A DNA stretch of 64,000 bases from Deltaproteobacteria bacterium (GCA_040218735.1 JAVJQW010000055.1:1-64000); one strand, 5' to 3'; shown: positions 1 through 4,422, numbered from the stretch's first letter. The notes: a model not told the origin generated them from the letters alone. Numbers and translations: made by a program.

Positions 1-95
1 TTGCTCACCACGTCGACGAGCTCCTCGATGAGCTCCACGCTCACCTCCAGAACGATGAACCGACCAGGAGAGGCTGCATTGTTTTTTCTGTTCAT
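1..95 (-). CDS. four-helix-bundle protein (IVP/Avd-like), 5' portion only; gene runs off the window edge
   Basis: Not in the ORF track. Minus strand from ATG at 95 reads MNRKNNAASPGRFIVLEVSVELIEELVDVVS, which aligns with [28 protein letters not shown] of 498..845. A purine-rich GGGGGGAGGT lies just upstream, and the leader motifs are shared with 498..845. Confidence 0.7.
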   Translation of the reverse strand, partial: MNRKNNAASPGRFIVLEVSVELIEELVDVVS

Positions 96-260
96 ACCTC
101 CCCCCGGCGCAGGCGGCGTGACGAACGGCCCTCCGTTCGGATGGCTACTTTCAGTGGAATCTATTCGATGGCTCGGTCGTGGCGGGGAATCAGAATCACA
201 AGCCGATCGGCGCGACGGTTGCGCCGCACATAAGGGATGAACAGAAAAAACAATGCAGCC
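72..260 (-). promoter_or_regulatory. structured leader of the minus-strand four-helix-bundle gene, closed by a perfect 24-bp inverted repeat
   Basis: 72-95 GGCTGCATTGTTTTTTCTGTTCAT is the exact reverse complement of 237-260. Inside are motif A (209-227), motif B (105-122) and the hairpin CGAACGG-CCCT-CCGTTCG (122-139). Confidence 0.7.
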
Positions 261-397
261 GTCGCCCGGTAGCTCGGTGTGTGCACCTCAACCAAGAGGA
301 CGGAGAGAGAGTCCTCCCCTTCAATCCCGCGGAAGAAAGAACCTCTCCGGTCAAAGTGCCTTAAGGAGCTGAAACCATCCCCAGTGCCACGACCCCC

Positions 398-521
398 GGC
401 CGAGTCCTTGGTTGGGTTCACACCCATGAAGCGGCGCAACAGTCGCGCCAAGGACCGCAGACGGTCCTTGTCACGCCTCCTGCGCCGAGAGGGGGGCATG
501 AACCCAACCAAGAACTCGACC
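398..521 (+). promoter_or_regulatory. structured leader of the plus-strand four-helix-bundle gene, closed by a 23-bp inverted repeat
   Basis: 398-420 pairs with 499-521 (21/23). Inside are motif A GCGGCGCAACAGTCGCGCC (431-449), the hairpin CAAGGACCG-CAGA-CGGTCCTTG (449-470) and motif B GTCACGCCTCCTGCGCCG (470-487). Confidence 0.7.
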
Positions 522-845
522 TACCGCTTCGTGGCGCTCGACGTGGCGCTGGAGATGATTCGTCAGCTCCGAGAGCCGCTTGCGAAGATTCGGAAGCACG
601 ATGCGGATTTGGCGAAGCAGATTAGGAAGGCGGCCGCGTCGGTGCCGTTGAATGTGGCGGAAGGGAGCCGGCGCGCCGGGGGCGACAGAGCGCACGCGTT
701 CCGAGTGGCGCTCGGGAGCGCCGACGAGGTGCGCGCCGCGTTGATGTGCGCGGATGCGTGGGGGTATGCGGCGGTGGATGACGAGCTGCTGGCGACGCTG
801 GATCGCTTGATGGGGCTCATCTGGGGGCTCGGCGGTAGGCGGTAG
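498..845 (+). CDS. four-helix-bundle protein (TIGR02436 / 23S rRNA IVP / Avd-like), 115 aa
   Basis: Family motifs [19 protein letters not shown] and [11 protein letters not shown]. Size is typical from ATG 498, which follows GAGAGGGGGGC. Confidence 0.88.
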
Positions 846-858
846 AGGAGGATGCTCG

Positions 859-878
859 GCGCCGTCGCGAGGCGGCGC
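859..878 (+). other. GC-rich hairpin with GCGA (GNRA) tetraloop
   Basis: GCGCCGTC-GCGA-GGCGGCGC: 8-bp stem with one G-U pair, lying between the stop codon and the repeat array. Confidence 0.55.
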
Positions 879-884
879 AGAGCG

Positions 885-1106
885 AATCGGACTCGGAATC
901 GGACTCGGAATCGGACTCGGAATCGGACTCGGAATCGGACTCGGAATCGGACTCGGAATCGGACTCGGACTCGGAATCGGACTCGGACTCGGAATCGGAC
1001 TCGGAATCGGACTCGGAATCGGACTCGGAATCGGACTCGGAATCGGACTCGGATTCGGTCACGGACTCGGATTCGGTCACGGAGTCGGATTCGGTCACGG
1101 ACTCGG
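885..1106. repeat. tandem hexamer array (NNNCGG x37)
   Basis: Mostly alternating AATCGG/ACTCGG, shifting to ATTCGG-TCACGG-ACTCGG triplets at the right end. 222 nt in uninterrupted hexamer phase between convergent genes. Confidence 0.95.
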
Positions 1107-1122
1107 ATCCGAATCCCATCCC

Positions 1123-4100
1123 CTAAAACATCACGTACACCGAGTCCCCGACCTCCTCCTCCAGCTCCCCACTCGTCCGGTACTCCTCGCCCAGCGCCAG
1201 CACCTCGCTCACGATCGACATCAGCGACGCCGCCGCGAAGCGCGGGTTCCAGTTCGAGGTGATCGCGCGCGCCATATCCCCAGGCCCCGCCGTGCTCGCC
1301 GCGGCGAGCTCGCTCGGGATCTCGAAGATCGGGCGTTTGTCGTCCGGCTCGTTGAGGTCGCGCCACGTCGAGGGGGCGTTGGTGAGCGCCTTCGAGATGC
1401 GGACGTCGCCGGACGTCGCGATGCGCGCCGCCGTCGGGAGGAAGCGCTCGAAGAACACTGCCTGGAGTTTGTCGACGAAGCCCGGGTCGAAGTTCTGCTT
1501 CGCCTCGACGTCGAACTCGACGTGGCCCTTCGCCTCCGGCCACGACGGCTGCTTGTCCTTGTAGAGGATGAAGTTCTCGAGGACGAGGACGTCCATCTCC
1601 GTGCGCATAAAACACCGGTACGCGTCGTACGGCGTGCACACGATCGGCTCGCCGCGCACGTTGAACGACGTGTTCACCACGACGCCGTAACCCGTCTTCT
1701 CCTTGAACGCCTTGATCAGCCGGTAGTACGTCGGGTGCTCGTCGCCGTTCACCGTCTGCACACGCGCCGAGTAGTCGACGTGTGTAATCGCCGGGACGTC
1801 CGAGCGCGGCCGCTTCACGACCTCCGTGAGGTCCTCGCCTTCCTTGCGCTCCGCGACGTCGAGCCGCCGGGACGCCTTCACCGGCGCGACCAACAACATG
1901 TACGGCGACCGGCCCTCCATCTCGAAGAACTCCGAGACGTCCTCCTCCAACACACTCGGCGCGAACGGACGGAACGACTCGCGGTACTTGATCTTGAGGT
2001 TCAGGTTGACCTGCATCTCCTGGTTGCGCGCGTCGCCGAGGATCGAACGCGCCCCCAGCGCACGCGGCCCGAACTCGAGGCGGTCCGCGAGGTGCCCGAC
2101 GACCCGGCCCGACGCCAGGACGTCCGCCACCTTCGACGCACGCTCCTCGGGAGACACACGCTCGAAGGGATAACCGTTCGACTCCAAGAAGCCCTGGATC
2201 TCGTCGTCCGAGAACGACGGCCCGAGGTACGAAGCGCCCTGCGACGAACGCCCGTCCGGACGCACCTTCCGCTCCTTGCCGAAGTACGAGTGGTACGCGT
2301 CGAGCGCCGCACCCAGCGAGCCGCCGGAGTCGCCGGCCGCGGGCTGGATGAAGATGTCGTCGAATGGCCCCTCGCGCAGGAGCTTGCCGTTCGACACGCA
2401 GTTCAACGCGACGCCGCCGGCCATGCAGAGGTTCTTCATGCCGGTCAGCTCTTGGGCGTGCTGCGCCATCTTCATCATCACCATCTCGGTGACGACCTGG
2501 ATGGACTTCGCGATGTCCATCTCACGCTCGGTGATCCACGCGTCCGGGTCACGGGCCGGCCCACCGAACAGCTCCGCGAACTTCGCGTTGGTCATCGTGT
2601 TCTCGTCGAGGAACGAGAAGTACGACAGGTCGAGCTCGATCGAGCCGTCGTCCTTGAGCTTCACCAGGTTGTCGAGGATCAGGTCGACGTACTTCGCCTC
2701 GCCGTACGGCGCGAGACCCATCATCTTGTACTCACCCGAGTTCACCTTGAAGCCGGTGAACTGCGTGAACGCCGAGTAGAGCAGCCCGACCGAGTTCGGG
2801 AAGTGCATCTCCTTCAGGATGTCGACGCGGTTGCCGCGCCCGACGCCGATCGATGCCGTTGCCCACTCCCCGACGCCGTCGATCGTCAGGATCGCCGCCT
2901 CCTCGAACGGCGACGGGTAGAACGCGCTCGCCGCGTGTGAGCGGTGGTGCGCCTCCTGGAGGATCAGGCCGTCGTAGTGCAGGTAGTCGCGGATCAGCCG
3001 CGGGATGTGGAGCTTGTAGAGCGTCCACGACGGGATGAACCGTCCCCAGTTGTCCGCGCCCTTCTCACCCGCCACCGCCTGCGTGTGCAGCAGCCGCTCG
3101 AACGTCAGCGGCGCGTTGTCGTAGTAGACGACCGCCGACAGGTCGCGCTGATCGATCTTCGCCTGCTCCAGGCAGAAGTTGATCGCGCTGTGCGGGAAGC
3201 GGCGGTCGTTCTTCTCACGCGTGAAGCGCTCCTCCTCCGCCGCCGCGATGATCTCTCCGTCCTTCACGATCGACGCCGCGCTGTTGTGATAGAACGCCGA
3301 GACCCCGAGGATGTACGTCCCCTCCGCGCGACGCCGCTTCGCGGGCTTCGGCGCGGCCGGCTTGGGCAACAAACTGCGCGAAGTGATCGCCTCCGCAATC
3401 TGAGTTGCAACGACCTCGTGCCCGTACGGCGAGAAGTGCACGTCCTCTTCGAACGGGATGCGCACACGATCTTCGCGCGACATCTTCATGATCGGCGCGG
3501 TGATGTCCGCGACGTGGACTTTGTTCTTCGGCGCCGCGACCCGCTCGAAGAGCGGCTGGTAGATCGGCTCCACCTCGTCCTTGATGTTGTGGTACGTCGG
3601 CAGCGGCACGATGAGCACCGGCGTCGGCGACGCCTCCGCCGCCCACTGCCGGAGGATGGCCTCCATCAGCCGCCACCCCTCGGTGTCCGCGCTCTTGTAG
3701 TCGGGGAAGGGCTGAAAGCCGGACGCCTTCATCACCGCGGGGCGCAGCCGGCCCACGACCGGTCCGAACAGCTCTCGCGCCTTCTTCGCGCGCGGGTCGT
3801 TTCGATAGAAGTCGACCGCCTTGTACGCGAGCTTCAGCCGCGGGTCCCGACGGTGCGAGCCGAAGCGATCGTCCTCCTCGGTGTCGACCGGCGGACGCTC
3901 CCAGGGGCAGGGCACGTTGCCGAGCTCCAGCTGAGATCCCTTCAGCGTGAAGAACGGCTTCGGCATCATCACCTTGTCGCCGGTGACGCGGTCGATCGAG
4001 ATGCGGCTCGAGACCTTGATGCGCTCGATGTTCTCGGAGAGCACCGAGATGACGATCAGGTCCGCCTCGATGTCCTTCGCGTAGTTCTTCCACGACAGGT

Positions 4101-4422
4101 ACTGCTGGTCGGTGCCGGAGCCCGACAGGCCGAAGTTGTACGTCTCGGCGTCGAGCTTCGCGCCGACGAGGTCCGAGAAGCGCTCGTGGTTCGAGCAGAG
4201 GTCGCCGGCGGTGTACGAGTCACCGAAGAAGAGGATGCGCGGGCGGTCGCCCTTCTTCTTCTCGAAGTCGATGTCGTTCCTGAAGCCTTGCGCGTTTGTC
4301 TTCACGAACGAGCCGCCGAGCTCGTTCGGGATGCGGGCTTCGAGGTTCTCGACGTAGCGGTGTCCGAGCTGCGGGTCGTGTCGGATCACCATGCGGTGGG
4401 TGGATTGCCAAATACGGAACAT
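1123..4422 (-). CDS. SGNH/GDSL hydrolase fused to NodU/CmcH-family carbamoyltransferase
   Basis: N-terminal FFGDSYT...[11 protein letters not shown]...DVHFSPYGH. Then [80 protein letters not shown] and [12 protein letters not shown]. Confidence 0.92.

What the first reader, a model, noticed from the sequence alone, without database searches (positions are those of the whole stretch)
72..521. Each leader carries a gene-specific antisense copy of its own start region
Seen in sequence: 237-260 is a perfect 24-nt inverted copy of the first 8 codons of the minus-strand gene (72-95), with imperfect pairing continuing into the Shine-Dalgarno region. 398-420 is a 21/23 inverted copy of 499-521 in the plus-strand gene. 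The two stems share little sequence, so complementarity was maintained or regenerated separately in each paralogue. Inference: either an RNA stem that buries the start codon (a translational off-switch, as in type I toxin or autoregulated mRNAs, or an RNase III substrate resembling the stems that flank 23S intervening sequences), or DNA inverted repeats bounding invertible segments (96-236 and 421-498).
Basis: partly seen in the sequence, partly recalled or inferred. Interest (0 to 1): 0.75.

Follow-up and report, generated by a model that had tools for sequence, protein, structure and literature searches.

The report
Leader hairpins that bury start codons
Two small back-to-back genes of the "ribosomal-RNA intervening-sequence protein" family each lie behind a long hairpin that pairs their own start codon with an upstream mirror copy, most likely a built-in translation lock like those of some jumping genes, though how the lock opens is unknown.

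Summary
Arms 72-99/233-260 (28 nt, 96%) and 398-457/462-521 (60 nt, 75%) are the only long separated inverted repeats in the 64-kb window. They fold far better than shuffles (z -5.3 to -9.1).

The two genes are divergent paralogues of the PF05635/TIGR02436 four-helix-bundle family. They form a cassette of about 1 kb that occurs three times in this 11.6-Mb genome, flanked by 6-nt-period tandem arrays. The scan has met this cassette type before on other DNA.

Read in register from the ATG, the two stems differ by 8 compensatory pairs out of 24. Opening the ribosome site costs 33-40 kcal/mol, against a maximum of 28.8 in 200 control genes. Among relatives in the phylum, 12 of 44 homologue clusters exceed the control 99th percentile, each with unrelated arm sequences.

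Best reading (0.5): a cis translational lock of the kind seen in the IS200 leader. An invertible switch is not supported.

What remains open:
- No transcript start is known.
- G-U pairs show no strand bias, and both window hairpins fold better on the antisense strand. A DNA-level or antisense role is therefore not excluded.

The parts
3..95 (-). First 31 codons of gene A (four-helix-bundle protein). It runs off the contig start. The full 117-aa copy is in C66 (L003:1489-1839, minus strand).
   Evidence: PF05635 at 2.8e-15; TIGR02436 at 56.3 bits against a cut-off of 24.
72..99 (-). 3' arm of leader hairpin A: start codon (93-95), the first 8 codons and the edge of the Shine-Dalgarno run.
   Evidence: (I2).
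100..232 (-). Interior of hairpin A: the G-rich Shine-Dalgarno run (to 105), inner stems 105-129/202-226, and a variable apical part.
   Evidence: (I4). In metagenome contigs, 17 of the 40 listed substitutions fall here.
233..260 (-). 5' (upstream) arm of hairpin A, the antisense copy of A's start region.
   Evidence: I2. Identical in all 3 genomic copies. No listed variant in 4 runs. Found nowhere else in the genome.
261..397 (.). Central spacer between the two leader hairpins. The promoters are presumed to lie here but were not found.
   Evidence: no sigma-70-like match better than 7 of 12.
398..457 (+). 5' half of leader hairpin B; 398-421 is the antisense copy of B's start region.
   Evidence: (I1).
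462..521 (+). 3' half of hairpin B: the motif shared with leader A (470-495), the purine run 487-496, ATG 498-500 and codons 2-8.
   Evidence: (I1, I3).
498..845 (+). Gene B, a 115-aa four-helix-bundle protein, 50% identical to A.
   Evidence: PF05635, 1.1e-12; TIGR02436, 52.4 bits. Copies differ by 14-19 synonymous against 4 nonsynonymous codons.
853..884 (+). G+C-rich hairpin just after the stop codon of B. It has no U tract, and a terminator role is not shown.
   Evidence: -25.5 kcal/mol, z -3.56. One search finds no consensus terminator. The same hairpin follows gene A in C13 and C43.
884..1115 (.). Tandem array (12-nt unit, 6-nt sub-period, 19.4 copies) that ends the cassette and reaches the stop codon (1123-1125) of the neighbouring gene.
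   Evidence: Like arrays lie on the outer side of both genes in all three copies.

Best explanation
The two inverted repeats are the basal stems of long leader hairpins (189 nt for gene A, 124 nt for gene B). They precede two divergent, paralogous four-helix-bundle genes of the 23S-rRNA-intervening-sequence-protein family (PF05635/TIGR02436). Genes and leaders together form a repeated cassette of about 1 kb bordered by tandem arrays.

In any transcript that carries the upstream arm, the Shine-Dalgarno region, the AUG and the first 8 codons are locked in a duplex that a ribosome cannot enter. The hairpin would then be a cis-acting translational lock. This is the logic shown for the IS200 transposase leader and, from recall, for read-through transcripts of IS10 and IS50. 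The 6-9 N-terminal codons in the 3' arm are a non-conserved extension of the protein that co-evolves with the upstream arm.

Shown: the structures, their stability, the covariation, their recurrence in homologues, and purifying selection on the proteins. Inferred: that the arm is transcribed, that translation is blocked, and that some event relieves the block (a start inside the hairpin, RNase III or another nuclease, or a helicase).
For: 1. Stability. Folds give z -5.3 to -9.1, with 0 of 200 shuffles as stable.

2. Cost of opening -14..+12. It is 33.5 kcal/mol for A and 34.3-40.2 for the three B copies. In 200 control starts of the same genome the mean is 15.5, sd 4.4, 99th percentile 24.5 and maximum 28.8.

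3. Covariation between the paralogues in register from the ATG: 8 compensatory, 13 unchanged and 3 broken pairs of 24; 8 of the 9 differences in the coding arm are compensated.

4. Recurrence. Of 88 homologous genes, 21 exceed the control 99th percentile and 15 exceed the control maximum. By cluster at 70% identity this is 12 of 44 and 9 of 44. The cases lie in 12 genomes of 7 coded families, with unrelated arm sequences. Among Shine-Dalgarno-bearing members it is 16 of 58, Mann-Whitney p 0.008, though kin are not independent.

5. Close paralogues L093 and L094: a 33-pair stem in which both coding differences are compensated, 2 of 2.

6. In 9 related leaders the anti-Shine-Dalgarno pairing is kept, and 10 of 26 pairs show compensatory change.

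7. In several single-gene cassettes the array and the hairpin fill the whole gap behind a co-directional host gene, so read-through RNA would carry the arm.

8. Precedent. The IS200 5'UTR stem-loop sequesters the Shine-Dalgarno sequence and blocks 30S binding (PMC4513863, passages read).
Against: - No transcript start is known. No RNA run was available, and promoter scans found nothing usable.
- G-U pairs are equally common on both strands: 61 of 1068 pairs sense, 66 of 1072 antisense.
- Both window hairpins fold better as antisense RNA: B -94.4 against -74.9 kcal/mol, A -95.6 against -84.5. Selection on the sense mRNA alone does not predict this.
- Stems of 24-35 perfect pairs would be a permanent lock, yet both proteins are under purifying selection (14-19 synonymous against 1-4 nonsynonymous codon differences) and so must be made. 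An unlocking step has to be assumed.
- 32 of 44 clusters lack the feature, and the family as a whole is not shifted (first test, p 0.15).
- The controls come from one genome, with start codons predicted by a simple rule.
Confidence: 0.5

Rival explanations
1. RNA-processing site. The long, nearly perfect stems are first of all RNase III substrates, as the terminal stems of 23S rRNA intervening sequences are. Cleavage would detach the cassette RNA from flanking RNA, or destroy or activate the mRNA. Occlusion of the start would be secondary. This overlaps with the best explanation.
For: The genes belong to the family encoded inside rRNA intervening sequences. In Coxiella a 28-bp terminal stem is cut by RNase III and the ORF's start lies close to the 5' cut (PMC4990558, passages read). 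Stems here reach 24-35 uninterrupted pairs. G-U pairs are few on either strand, at about 6%.
Against: The arms enclose only the leader and not the ORF, unlike an intervening sequence. A double-strand cut in the basal stem would fall inside the first codons. No cleavage data exist.
Confidence: 0.2
2. DNA-level palindrome. The hairpins matter as cruciforms or single-strand DNA hairpins, for spread or replication of the cassette, or they are merely kept perfect by template-switch repair of quasi-palindromes. The overlap with the start codon would be a by-product of a compact cassette.
For: There is no strand asymmetry in G-U pairs, and energies on the two strands are mixed across 20 hairpins. In one relative (L031, minus strand) the 3' arm in the coding region is an inverted copy of the fast-evolving upstream hexamer array, which suggests templated co-evolution. 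The cassette is multi-copy and breaks the assembly.
Against: The 3' arm always covers the ribosome site rather than a random place near the gene. The arms differ in sequence between lineages, so no sequence-specific enzyme site is conserved. In the window the more stable strand switches with gene orientation (plus strand for A, minus strand for B), which argues against a replication-strand effect. No transposase or recombinase lies in the repeated unit.
Confidence: 0.17
3. The functional hairpins are the antisense-strand RNAs: a plus-strand RNA over 72-260 and a minus-strand RNA over 398-521. They could be 5' stabilisers of long overlapping divergent leaders, or cis-antisense RNAs.
For: Both fold into more perfect rods on the antisense strand. 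Region 398-521 gives -94.4 kcal/mol (z -10.56) on the minus strand against -74.9 on the plus strand. Region 72-260 gives -95.6 (z -7.99) on the plus strand against -84.5 on the minus strand.
Against: Across 20 hairpins from other genomes the direction is mixed. Antisense is better by more than 2 kcal/mol in 11, sense in 4, and 5 are about equal; several of the 11 are copies of one cluster. There is no transcript evidence.
Confidence: 0.08
4. Invertible DNA switch: the arms bound the segments 96-236 and 421-498, which a recombinase flips to turn the genes on or off.
For: The only support is the presence of inverted repeats around the ribosome-site region.
Against: The orientation is the same in 3 of 3 genomic copies. 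Contigs of 4 runs from 4 studies bridge the arms, and the only joints are the two caused by A/B paralogy (1/3 to 587/585); contigs can, however, miss rare forms. Loop orientation is the same in 12 of 15 paralogue comparisons, with 3 uninformative. Segment 421-498 is itself palindromic. No recombinase gene lies in the cassette, and the neighbours differ between copies.
Confidence: 0.03

Closest known systems
IS200 transposase (tnpA) leader stem-loop (PMC4513863, passages read)
   Same: A selfish element whose own 5' leader folds into a stem-loop that sequesters a strong Shine-Dalgarno sequence and blocks 30S binding. The repression is built in and acts in cis.
   Different: The gene here is not a transposase. 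The stems are much longer (24-60 nt arms) and extend through the AUG into 8 codons. Transcript starts are unknown, and no antisense RNA or Hfq role has been examined.
Fold-back inhibition of read-through transcripts in IS10 and IS50
   Same: A sequence upstream of the gene's own start pairs with the ribosome site, so RNA that enters from outside cannot be translated.
   Different: That model needs the element's own promoter to lie between the arms. Hairpin B has a 4-nt apical loop and the G340 relatives have 16-17-nt loops, which leaves little room for one.
ORF-bearing intervening sequences of 23S rRNA (Coxiella burnetii, Leptospira; PMC4990558, passages read)
   Same: The protein family is the same. 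Long RNase III-type stems lie next to the ORF's start, short direct repeats lie upstream of the start, and translation is poor or absent in Coxiella.
   Different: The cassette is not in an rRNA gene. The arms enclose the leader only and not the whole ORF. There are two genes per cassette, and the flanking arrays are in direct orientation.
Hairpin- or array-bracketed four-helix-bundle cassettes noted earlier in this scan (AI notes e1-730272, e1-1105045, e1-1163789)
   Same: The gene family is the same. Short-period tandem arrays lie at the borders, the cassettes are multi-copy and sit between ordinary genes, and one subfamily has a copy of the repeat inside its coding sequence.
   Different: Those notes describe inverted arrays that enclose the gene. 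Here the arrays on the two sides are direct, and the hairpin is a separate, gene-specific leader element that includes the start codon.

Membership tests
PF05635 / TIGR02436 four-helix-bundle (23S rRNA intervening-sequence protein) family | Profile score above the curated cut-off over most of the model. | tested here: met
   B: Pfam 48.6 bits (cut-off 33.8) and TIGR02436 52.4 bits (cut-off 24). A, full copy from C66: Pfam 56.9 bits and TIGR02436 56.3 bits.
IS200-type leader lock (Shine-Dalgarno-sequestering 5'UTR stem-loop) | A stem-loop in the leader pairs the Shine-Dalgarno and start region. | tested here: met
   In silico only. The opening cost of 33-40 kcal/mol exceeds all 200 controls.
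IS200-type leader lock (Shine-Dalgarno-sequestering 5'UTR stem-loop) | The element's own mRNA starts upstream of the 5' arm, so it carries the lock. | not testable with these tools
   No RNA data were available, and promoter scans were empty.
IS200-type leader lock (Shine-Dalgarno-sequestering 5'UTR stem-loop) | Disrupting the stem raises translation and 30S binding. | not testable with these tools
   This needs reporter fusions and toeprinting.
IS200-type leader lock (Shine-Dalgarno-sequestering 5'UTR stem-loop) | The locked gene is the element's transposase. | tested here: not met
   The only genes in the repeated unit are the two PF05635 genes.
IS10/IS50 fold-back inhibition | The own promoter lies between the arms, so only outside transcripts fold back. 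| tested here: inconclusive
   No promoter-like site was found in 60-560. Hairpin B leaves a 4-nt apical loop, while hairpin A has 133 nt between its arms.
23S rRNA intervening sequence | It is inserted in a 23S rRNA helix. | tested here: not met
   No rRNA match was found in 1-1300. The neighbour is a carbamoyltransferase gene, and the other copies lie between other protein-coding genes.
23S rRNA intervening sequence | Terminal inverted repeats enclose the whole ORF. | tested here: not met
   The arms enclose only the leader. The flanking arrays are in direct orientation.
23S rRNA intervening sequence | The stem is cut by RNase III. | not testable with these tools
   This needs an in vitro cleavage assay or an RNase III mutant.
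Invertible promoter or ribosome-site switch (fim/hin type) | Both orientations are present among copies or in populations. | tested here: not met
   One orientation was seen in 3 of 3 copies, in contigs of 4 runs and in 12 of 15 paralogue comparisons, with 3 uninformative. Contigs can miss rare forms.
Invertible promoter or ribosome-site switch (fim/hin type) | A linked site-specific recombinase gene. | tested here: not met
   There is none within the repeated unit, and the flanks differ between the three copies. The rest of the genome was not searched for recombinases.
Type I toxin-antitoxin | A small hydrophobic toxin peptide whose mRNA start is buried. | tested here: not met
   The products are 115- and 117-aa members of a soluble four-helix-bundle family. 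They have no PADLOC match.

The most novel reading that the evidence does not exclude
The start-burying hairpin is a self-locking device typical of these intervening-sequence-type cassettes. On this reading the short, fast-changing N-terminal extension of the protein exists mainly to base-pair with the upstream arm. The lock would be opened by a specific event, such as RNase III cutting or binding of the cassette's own pentameric RNA-binding-type protein, which would give an autoregulatory circuit. This would explain why the ORFs of rRNA intervening sequences look untranslated, and it would give the first handle on what this very large 'unknown function' family does.
Probability: 0.15. Interest if true: 0.7.

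Novelty: new variant of a known kind. Interest (0 to 1): 0.45.

Why it matters
PF05635/TIGR02436 proteins are among the commonest small proteins of unknown function in bacteria. They are the ORFs of rRNA intervening sequences and relatives of the Avd accessory protein of diversity-generating retroelements. How they are expressed, and why they spread as cassettes, is not known.

About a quarter of the clusters sampled in this phylum carry a very stable, co-evolving hairpin over their own ribosome site, while the proteins stay under purifying selection. That points to tight, probably conditional, control of translation, and reporter fusions with compensatory mutants could test it directly. If the hairpins instead act at the DNA level or on the antisense strand, they bear on how these cassettes move.

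Tried and rejected
- RNA evidence. The look-up of sequencing runs listed no RNA holder, so expression and transcript ends could not be examined.
I used the genome search and the fetch from genomes instead.
- Rfam gave no family. The best hit, a plant microRNA precursor model, scored 34.9 bits against a gathering score of 268, which reflects only a long hairpin.
- Promoter and terminator consensus scans found 0 sites. A relaxed scan found nothing above 7 of 12.
- Counting paired bases in the minimum-energy fold does not discriminate in this G+C-rich DNA: Shine-Dalgarno pairing was seen in 39 of 88 family genes and 49 of 200 controls. I dropped it in favour of opening energy.
- A 'strongest local domain' measure was confounded by branched folds and was dropped.
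- The first opening-energy run used a -150 window that cut off A's upstream arm. It was redone with -200.
- The G-U strand-bias test meant to separate RNA-level from DNA-level selection was inconclusive.
- A search for a trans copy of either arm or of the shared leader motifs found none outside the three cassettes.
- An upstream in-frame ATG at 426 was rejected as the start of B because it is absent from the C66 copy.
- PADLOC gave no match.
- Literature searches returned no paper on leader hairpins of this family in the library held. Subscription journals are not covered.
- I did not look for empty insertion sites in relatives, nor test whether A and B bind each other.

Full report
**What is there.** The window is the first 64 kb of contig C33 of an 11.6-Mb, 70-contig genome; earlier notes of this scan call it myxobacterial. 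At its left edge lie two divergent small genes.
- Gene B (498-845, plus strand, 115 aa) matches PF05635 '23S rRNA intervening-sequence protein' and TIGR02436 'four helix bundle protein'.
- Gene A starts at 95 on the minus strand and runs off the contig after 31 codons. A complete copy in contig C66 is 117 aa and matches the same families. A and B are 50% identical.

The pair is a repeated unit:
- Window 1-1077 recurs at 91-92% identity in C66 and C70.
- Contigs C13 and C43 begin with the missing part of gene A and overlap C33 and C70 by 96 bases. The genome therefore holds three cassettes, and the assembly breaks in them.
- In all copies each gene is followed by a G+C-rich hairpin and then by a tandem array with 6-nt periodicity (window 884-1115).
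- The arrays on the two sides are in direct orientation, not inverted.
- The neighbours differ between copies: a carbamoyltransferase/GDSL fusion gene here, and other genes in C66, C13 and C43.

- One search reports arms 72-99/233-260 (28 nt, 96%) and 398-457/462-521 (60 nt, 75%, 4-nt loop).
- These are the only long separated inverted repeats in the whole window.
- As RNA, the leaders fold with z -5.3 to -9.1, and none of 200 shuffles does as well.
- The start of B is ATG 498. The upstream in-frame ATG 426 is absent from the C66 copy.

**The leaders are paralogous and the stems co-vary.**
- The two leaders share motifs in mirror orientation: 97-122 with 470-495, and 209-227 with 431-449.
- Aligned in register from the ATG, the 24 basal pairs split into 13 unchanged, 8 changed on both sides with pairing kept, 0 one-sided and 3 broken, all three in B. 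Thus 8 of the 9 differences in the coding arm are matched in the upstream arm.
- In the C70 copy one of B's mismatches is repaired by a change in the upstream arm.
- Contigs of four metagenome runs from four studies list 40 substitutions (63 more were not shown). Of these, 17 fall in the interior of hairpin A, 7 in the spacer, 1 near the apex of hairpin B, 15 in gene B or just behind it, and none in the basal arms. One single-base insertion behind 99 was seen in one contig.
- The arms occur nowhere else in the genome.

**Is this a property of the family?** I collected homologues from 401 genomes of the phylum; 64 had a match at E <= 1e-12. I also fetched 40 further regions.

*First test.* This used 47 non-redundant genes, after dropping 10 truncated, doubtful or duplicate rows. 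It compared the duplex between the start window and the gene's own upstream region with 100 dinucleotide shuffles.
- Seven rows had z <= -4.8: A, two copies of B, and genes of G010, G022, G046 and G078.
- One row had z -3.8.
- The other 39 lay between -2.7 and +1.4.

*Second test.* This measured the free energy needed to open -14..+12 within -200..+45. It covered 88 genes (8 fragments dropped) in 44 clusters at 70% identity, set against 200 control starts. The controls were long, high-GC3 ORFs of this genome with a Shine-Dalgarno-like motif.
- Controls: mean 15.5, sd 4.4, 99th percentile 24.5, maximum 28.8 kcal/mol.
- Family genes above the 99th percentile: 21 of 88. Above the control maximum: 15 of 88.
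- Clusters: 12 of 44 and 9 of 44.
- A scores 33.5 and the B copies 34.3-40.2.

*Where the positive clusters lie.* They come from 12 genomes of 7 coded families, with unrelated arm sequences.
- In G340 two close paralogues carry a 33-pair perfect stem, and both of their coding differences are compensated.
- In nine related leaders the pairing of the Shine-Dalgarno sequence with an upstream complement is conserved, and 10 of 26 pairs show compensatory change.

*The limits of the pattern.*
- 32 of 44 clusters lack it.
- The family as a whole is not shifted in the first run (p 0.15). It is only modestly shifted among Shine-Dalgarno-bearing members (p 0.008, with kin not independent).
- A count of paired bases in minimum-energy folds does not discriminate in this G+C-rich DNA.

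**How it most likely works.**
- If the upstream arm is part of the mRNA, the ribosome site is closed by a duplex far more stable than anything among the control genes. This is the logic of the IS200 transposase leader, whose stem-loop sequesters a strong Shine-Dalgarno sequence and blocks 30S binding (PMC4513863, passages). From recall, it is also the logic of fold-back inhibition of read-through transcripts in IS10 and IS50.
- In several single-gene relatives, an array and then the hairpin fill the whole gap behind a co-directional host gene. Read-through RNA would therefore carry the arm.
- The part of the protein encoded by the 3' arm is a non-conserved N-terminal extension, absent from the closest relatives. 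In one G022 gene this extension is an inverted copy of the upstream hexamer array.

**What speaks against a simple reading.**
- Both proteins are under purifying selection among the three copies (14-19 synonymous against 1-4 nonsynonymous codon differences). They must therefore be made, and a lock of 24-35 perfect pairs needs an opener that I cannot name.
- No transcript start is known.
- A test meant to separate RNA-level from DNA-level selection failed to do so. G-U pairs number 61 of 1068 on the sense strand and 66 of 1072 on the antisense strand.
- Both window hairpins fold better as antisense RNA: B -94.4 against -74.9 kcal/mol, A -95.6 against -84.5. Across 20 hairpins from all genomes the direction is mixed. 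In the window the better strand changes with gene orientation. That argues against a replication-strand effect but leaves an antisense or DNA-level role open.

**Rejected or weak readings.**
- Inversion. One orientation is seen in 3 of 3 copies. The contigs of four runs show no joints at the arms; their only joints reflect A/B paralogy, though contigs can miss rare forms. Loop orientation is the same in 12 of 15 paralogue comparisons, with 3 uninformative. Segment 421-498 is itself palindromic, and the unit holds no recombinase.
- Type I toxin. The products are ordinary four-helix-bundle proteins.
- A known RNA family. None was found.

**Comparison with what is known.**
- The genes are members of PF05635/TIGR02436.
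- The cassette is not an rRNA intervening sequence. It is not in rRNA, and the arms do not enclose the ORF.
- It shares several traits with the Coxiella element: the gene family, long stems beside the ORF's start, short direct repeats upstream of the start, and apparently poor translation (PMC4990558, passages).
- Earlier AI notes of this scan describe array-bracketed cassettes of the same gene family in many phyla. The present case adds a gene-specific leader hairpin that includes the start codon, and here the flanking arrays are direct.
- Two literature searches found no description of such leaders in the library held.

**Verdict.** The feature is real, non-random and co-evolving. It is best read as a cis translational lock in a selfish cassette (0.5). 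RNase III processing (0.2), a DNA-level palindrome (0.17) and antisense-strand RNAs (0.08) remain live rivals, and inversion is unlikely (0.03).

Noticed in passing
window 884-1115; C66 239759-239830 and 241117-241266; C13 about 400-612; C43 about 400-570; C70 about 910-1100: Tandem arrays with a 6-nt period border every copy of the cassette and run up to the stop codon of the neighbouring gene. A crude pattern search finds 21 such arrays in the genome, most of them not beside a PF05635 gene. Their role is unknown. Intergenic heptamer repeats of other bacteria are discussed in PMC4679880 (search listing and start of abstract only).
   Followed up: partly
window 72-260 and 398-521: Both leader hairpins fold into more perfect rods on the strand antisense to their gene, by about 11 and 20 kcal/mol. 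All three mismatches of B's basal stem are C-A in the sense RNA and G-U in the antisense RNA.
   Followed up: partly
G197, G194, G046, G080, G297 (convergent pairs); G271:C1:36128-37194 (divergent pair): Genes of this subfamily often come as adjacent paralogue pairs. Most are tail to tail, about 56-140 nt apart, or overlapping in G022. One other divergent pair has a gap of about 430 nt. This hints at a two-protein unit. Binding was not tested.
   Followed up: no
L031 (G022), minus-strand gene, hairpin L031:2138-2313: The N-terminal extension of this homologue is encoded by an inverted copy of the hexamer array that lies upstream. The array and the first codons therefore form the stem, and close paralogues have quite different N-termini.
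   Followed up: partly
window 1-96; starts of C70, C13 and C43: Four contigs end inside the cassette with identical 96-base overlaps. The repeat is what breaks the assembly here, and which of C13 or C43 continues C33 cannot be told.
   Followed up: yes
window 1123-4422, minus strand: A 1099-aa ORF fuses an N-terminal GDSL/SGNH hydrolase-like domain to a complete carbamoyltransferase (PF02543 and PF16861).
   Followed up: partly
window 237-272, plus strand: Because of the mirror symmetry, the plus strand carries a decoy start: an AAGGG-type purine run, an ATG, the same first 8 codons as gene A, and a stop after 11 codons. It is probably meaningless.
   Followed up: no
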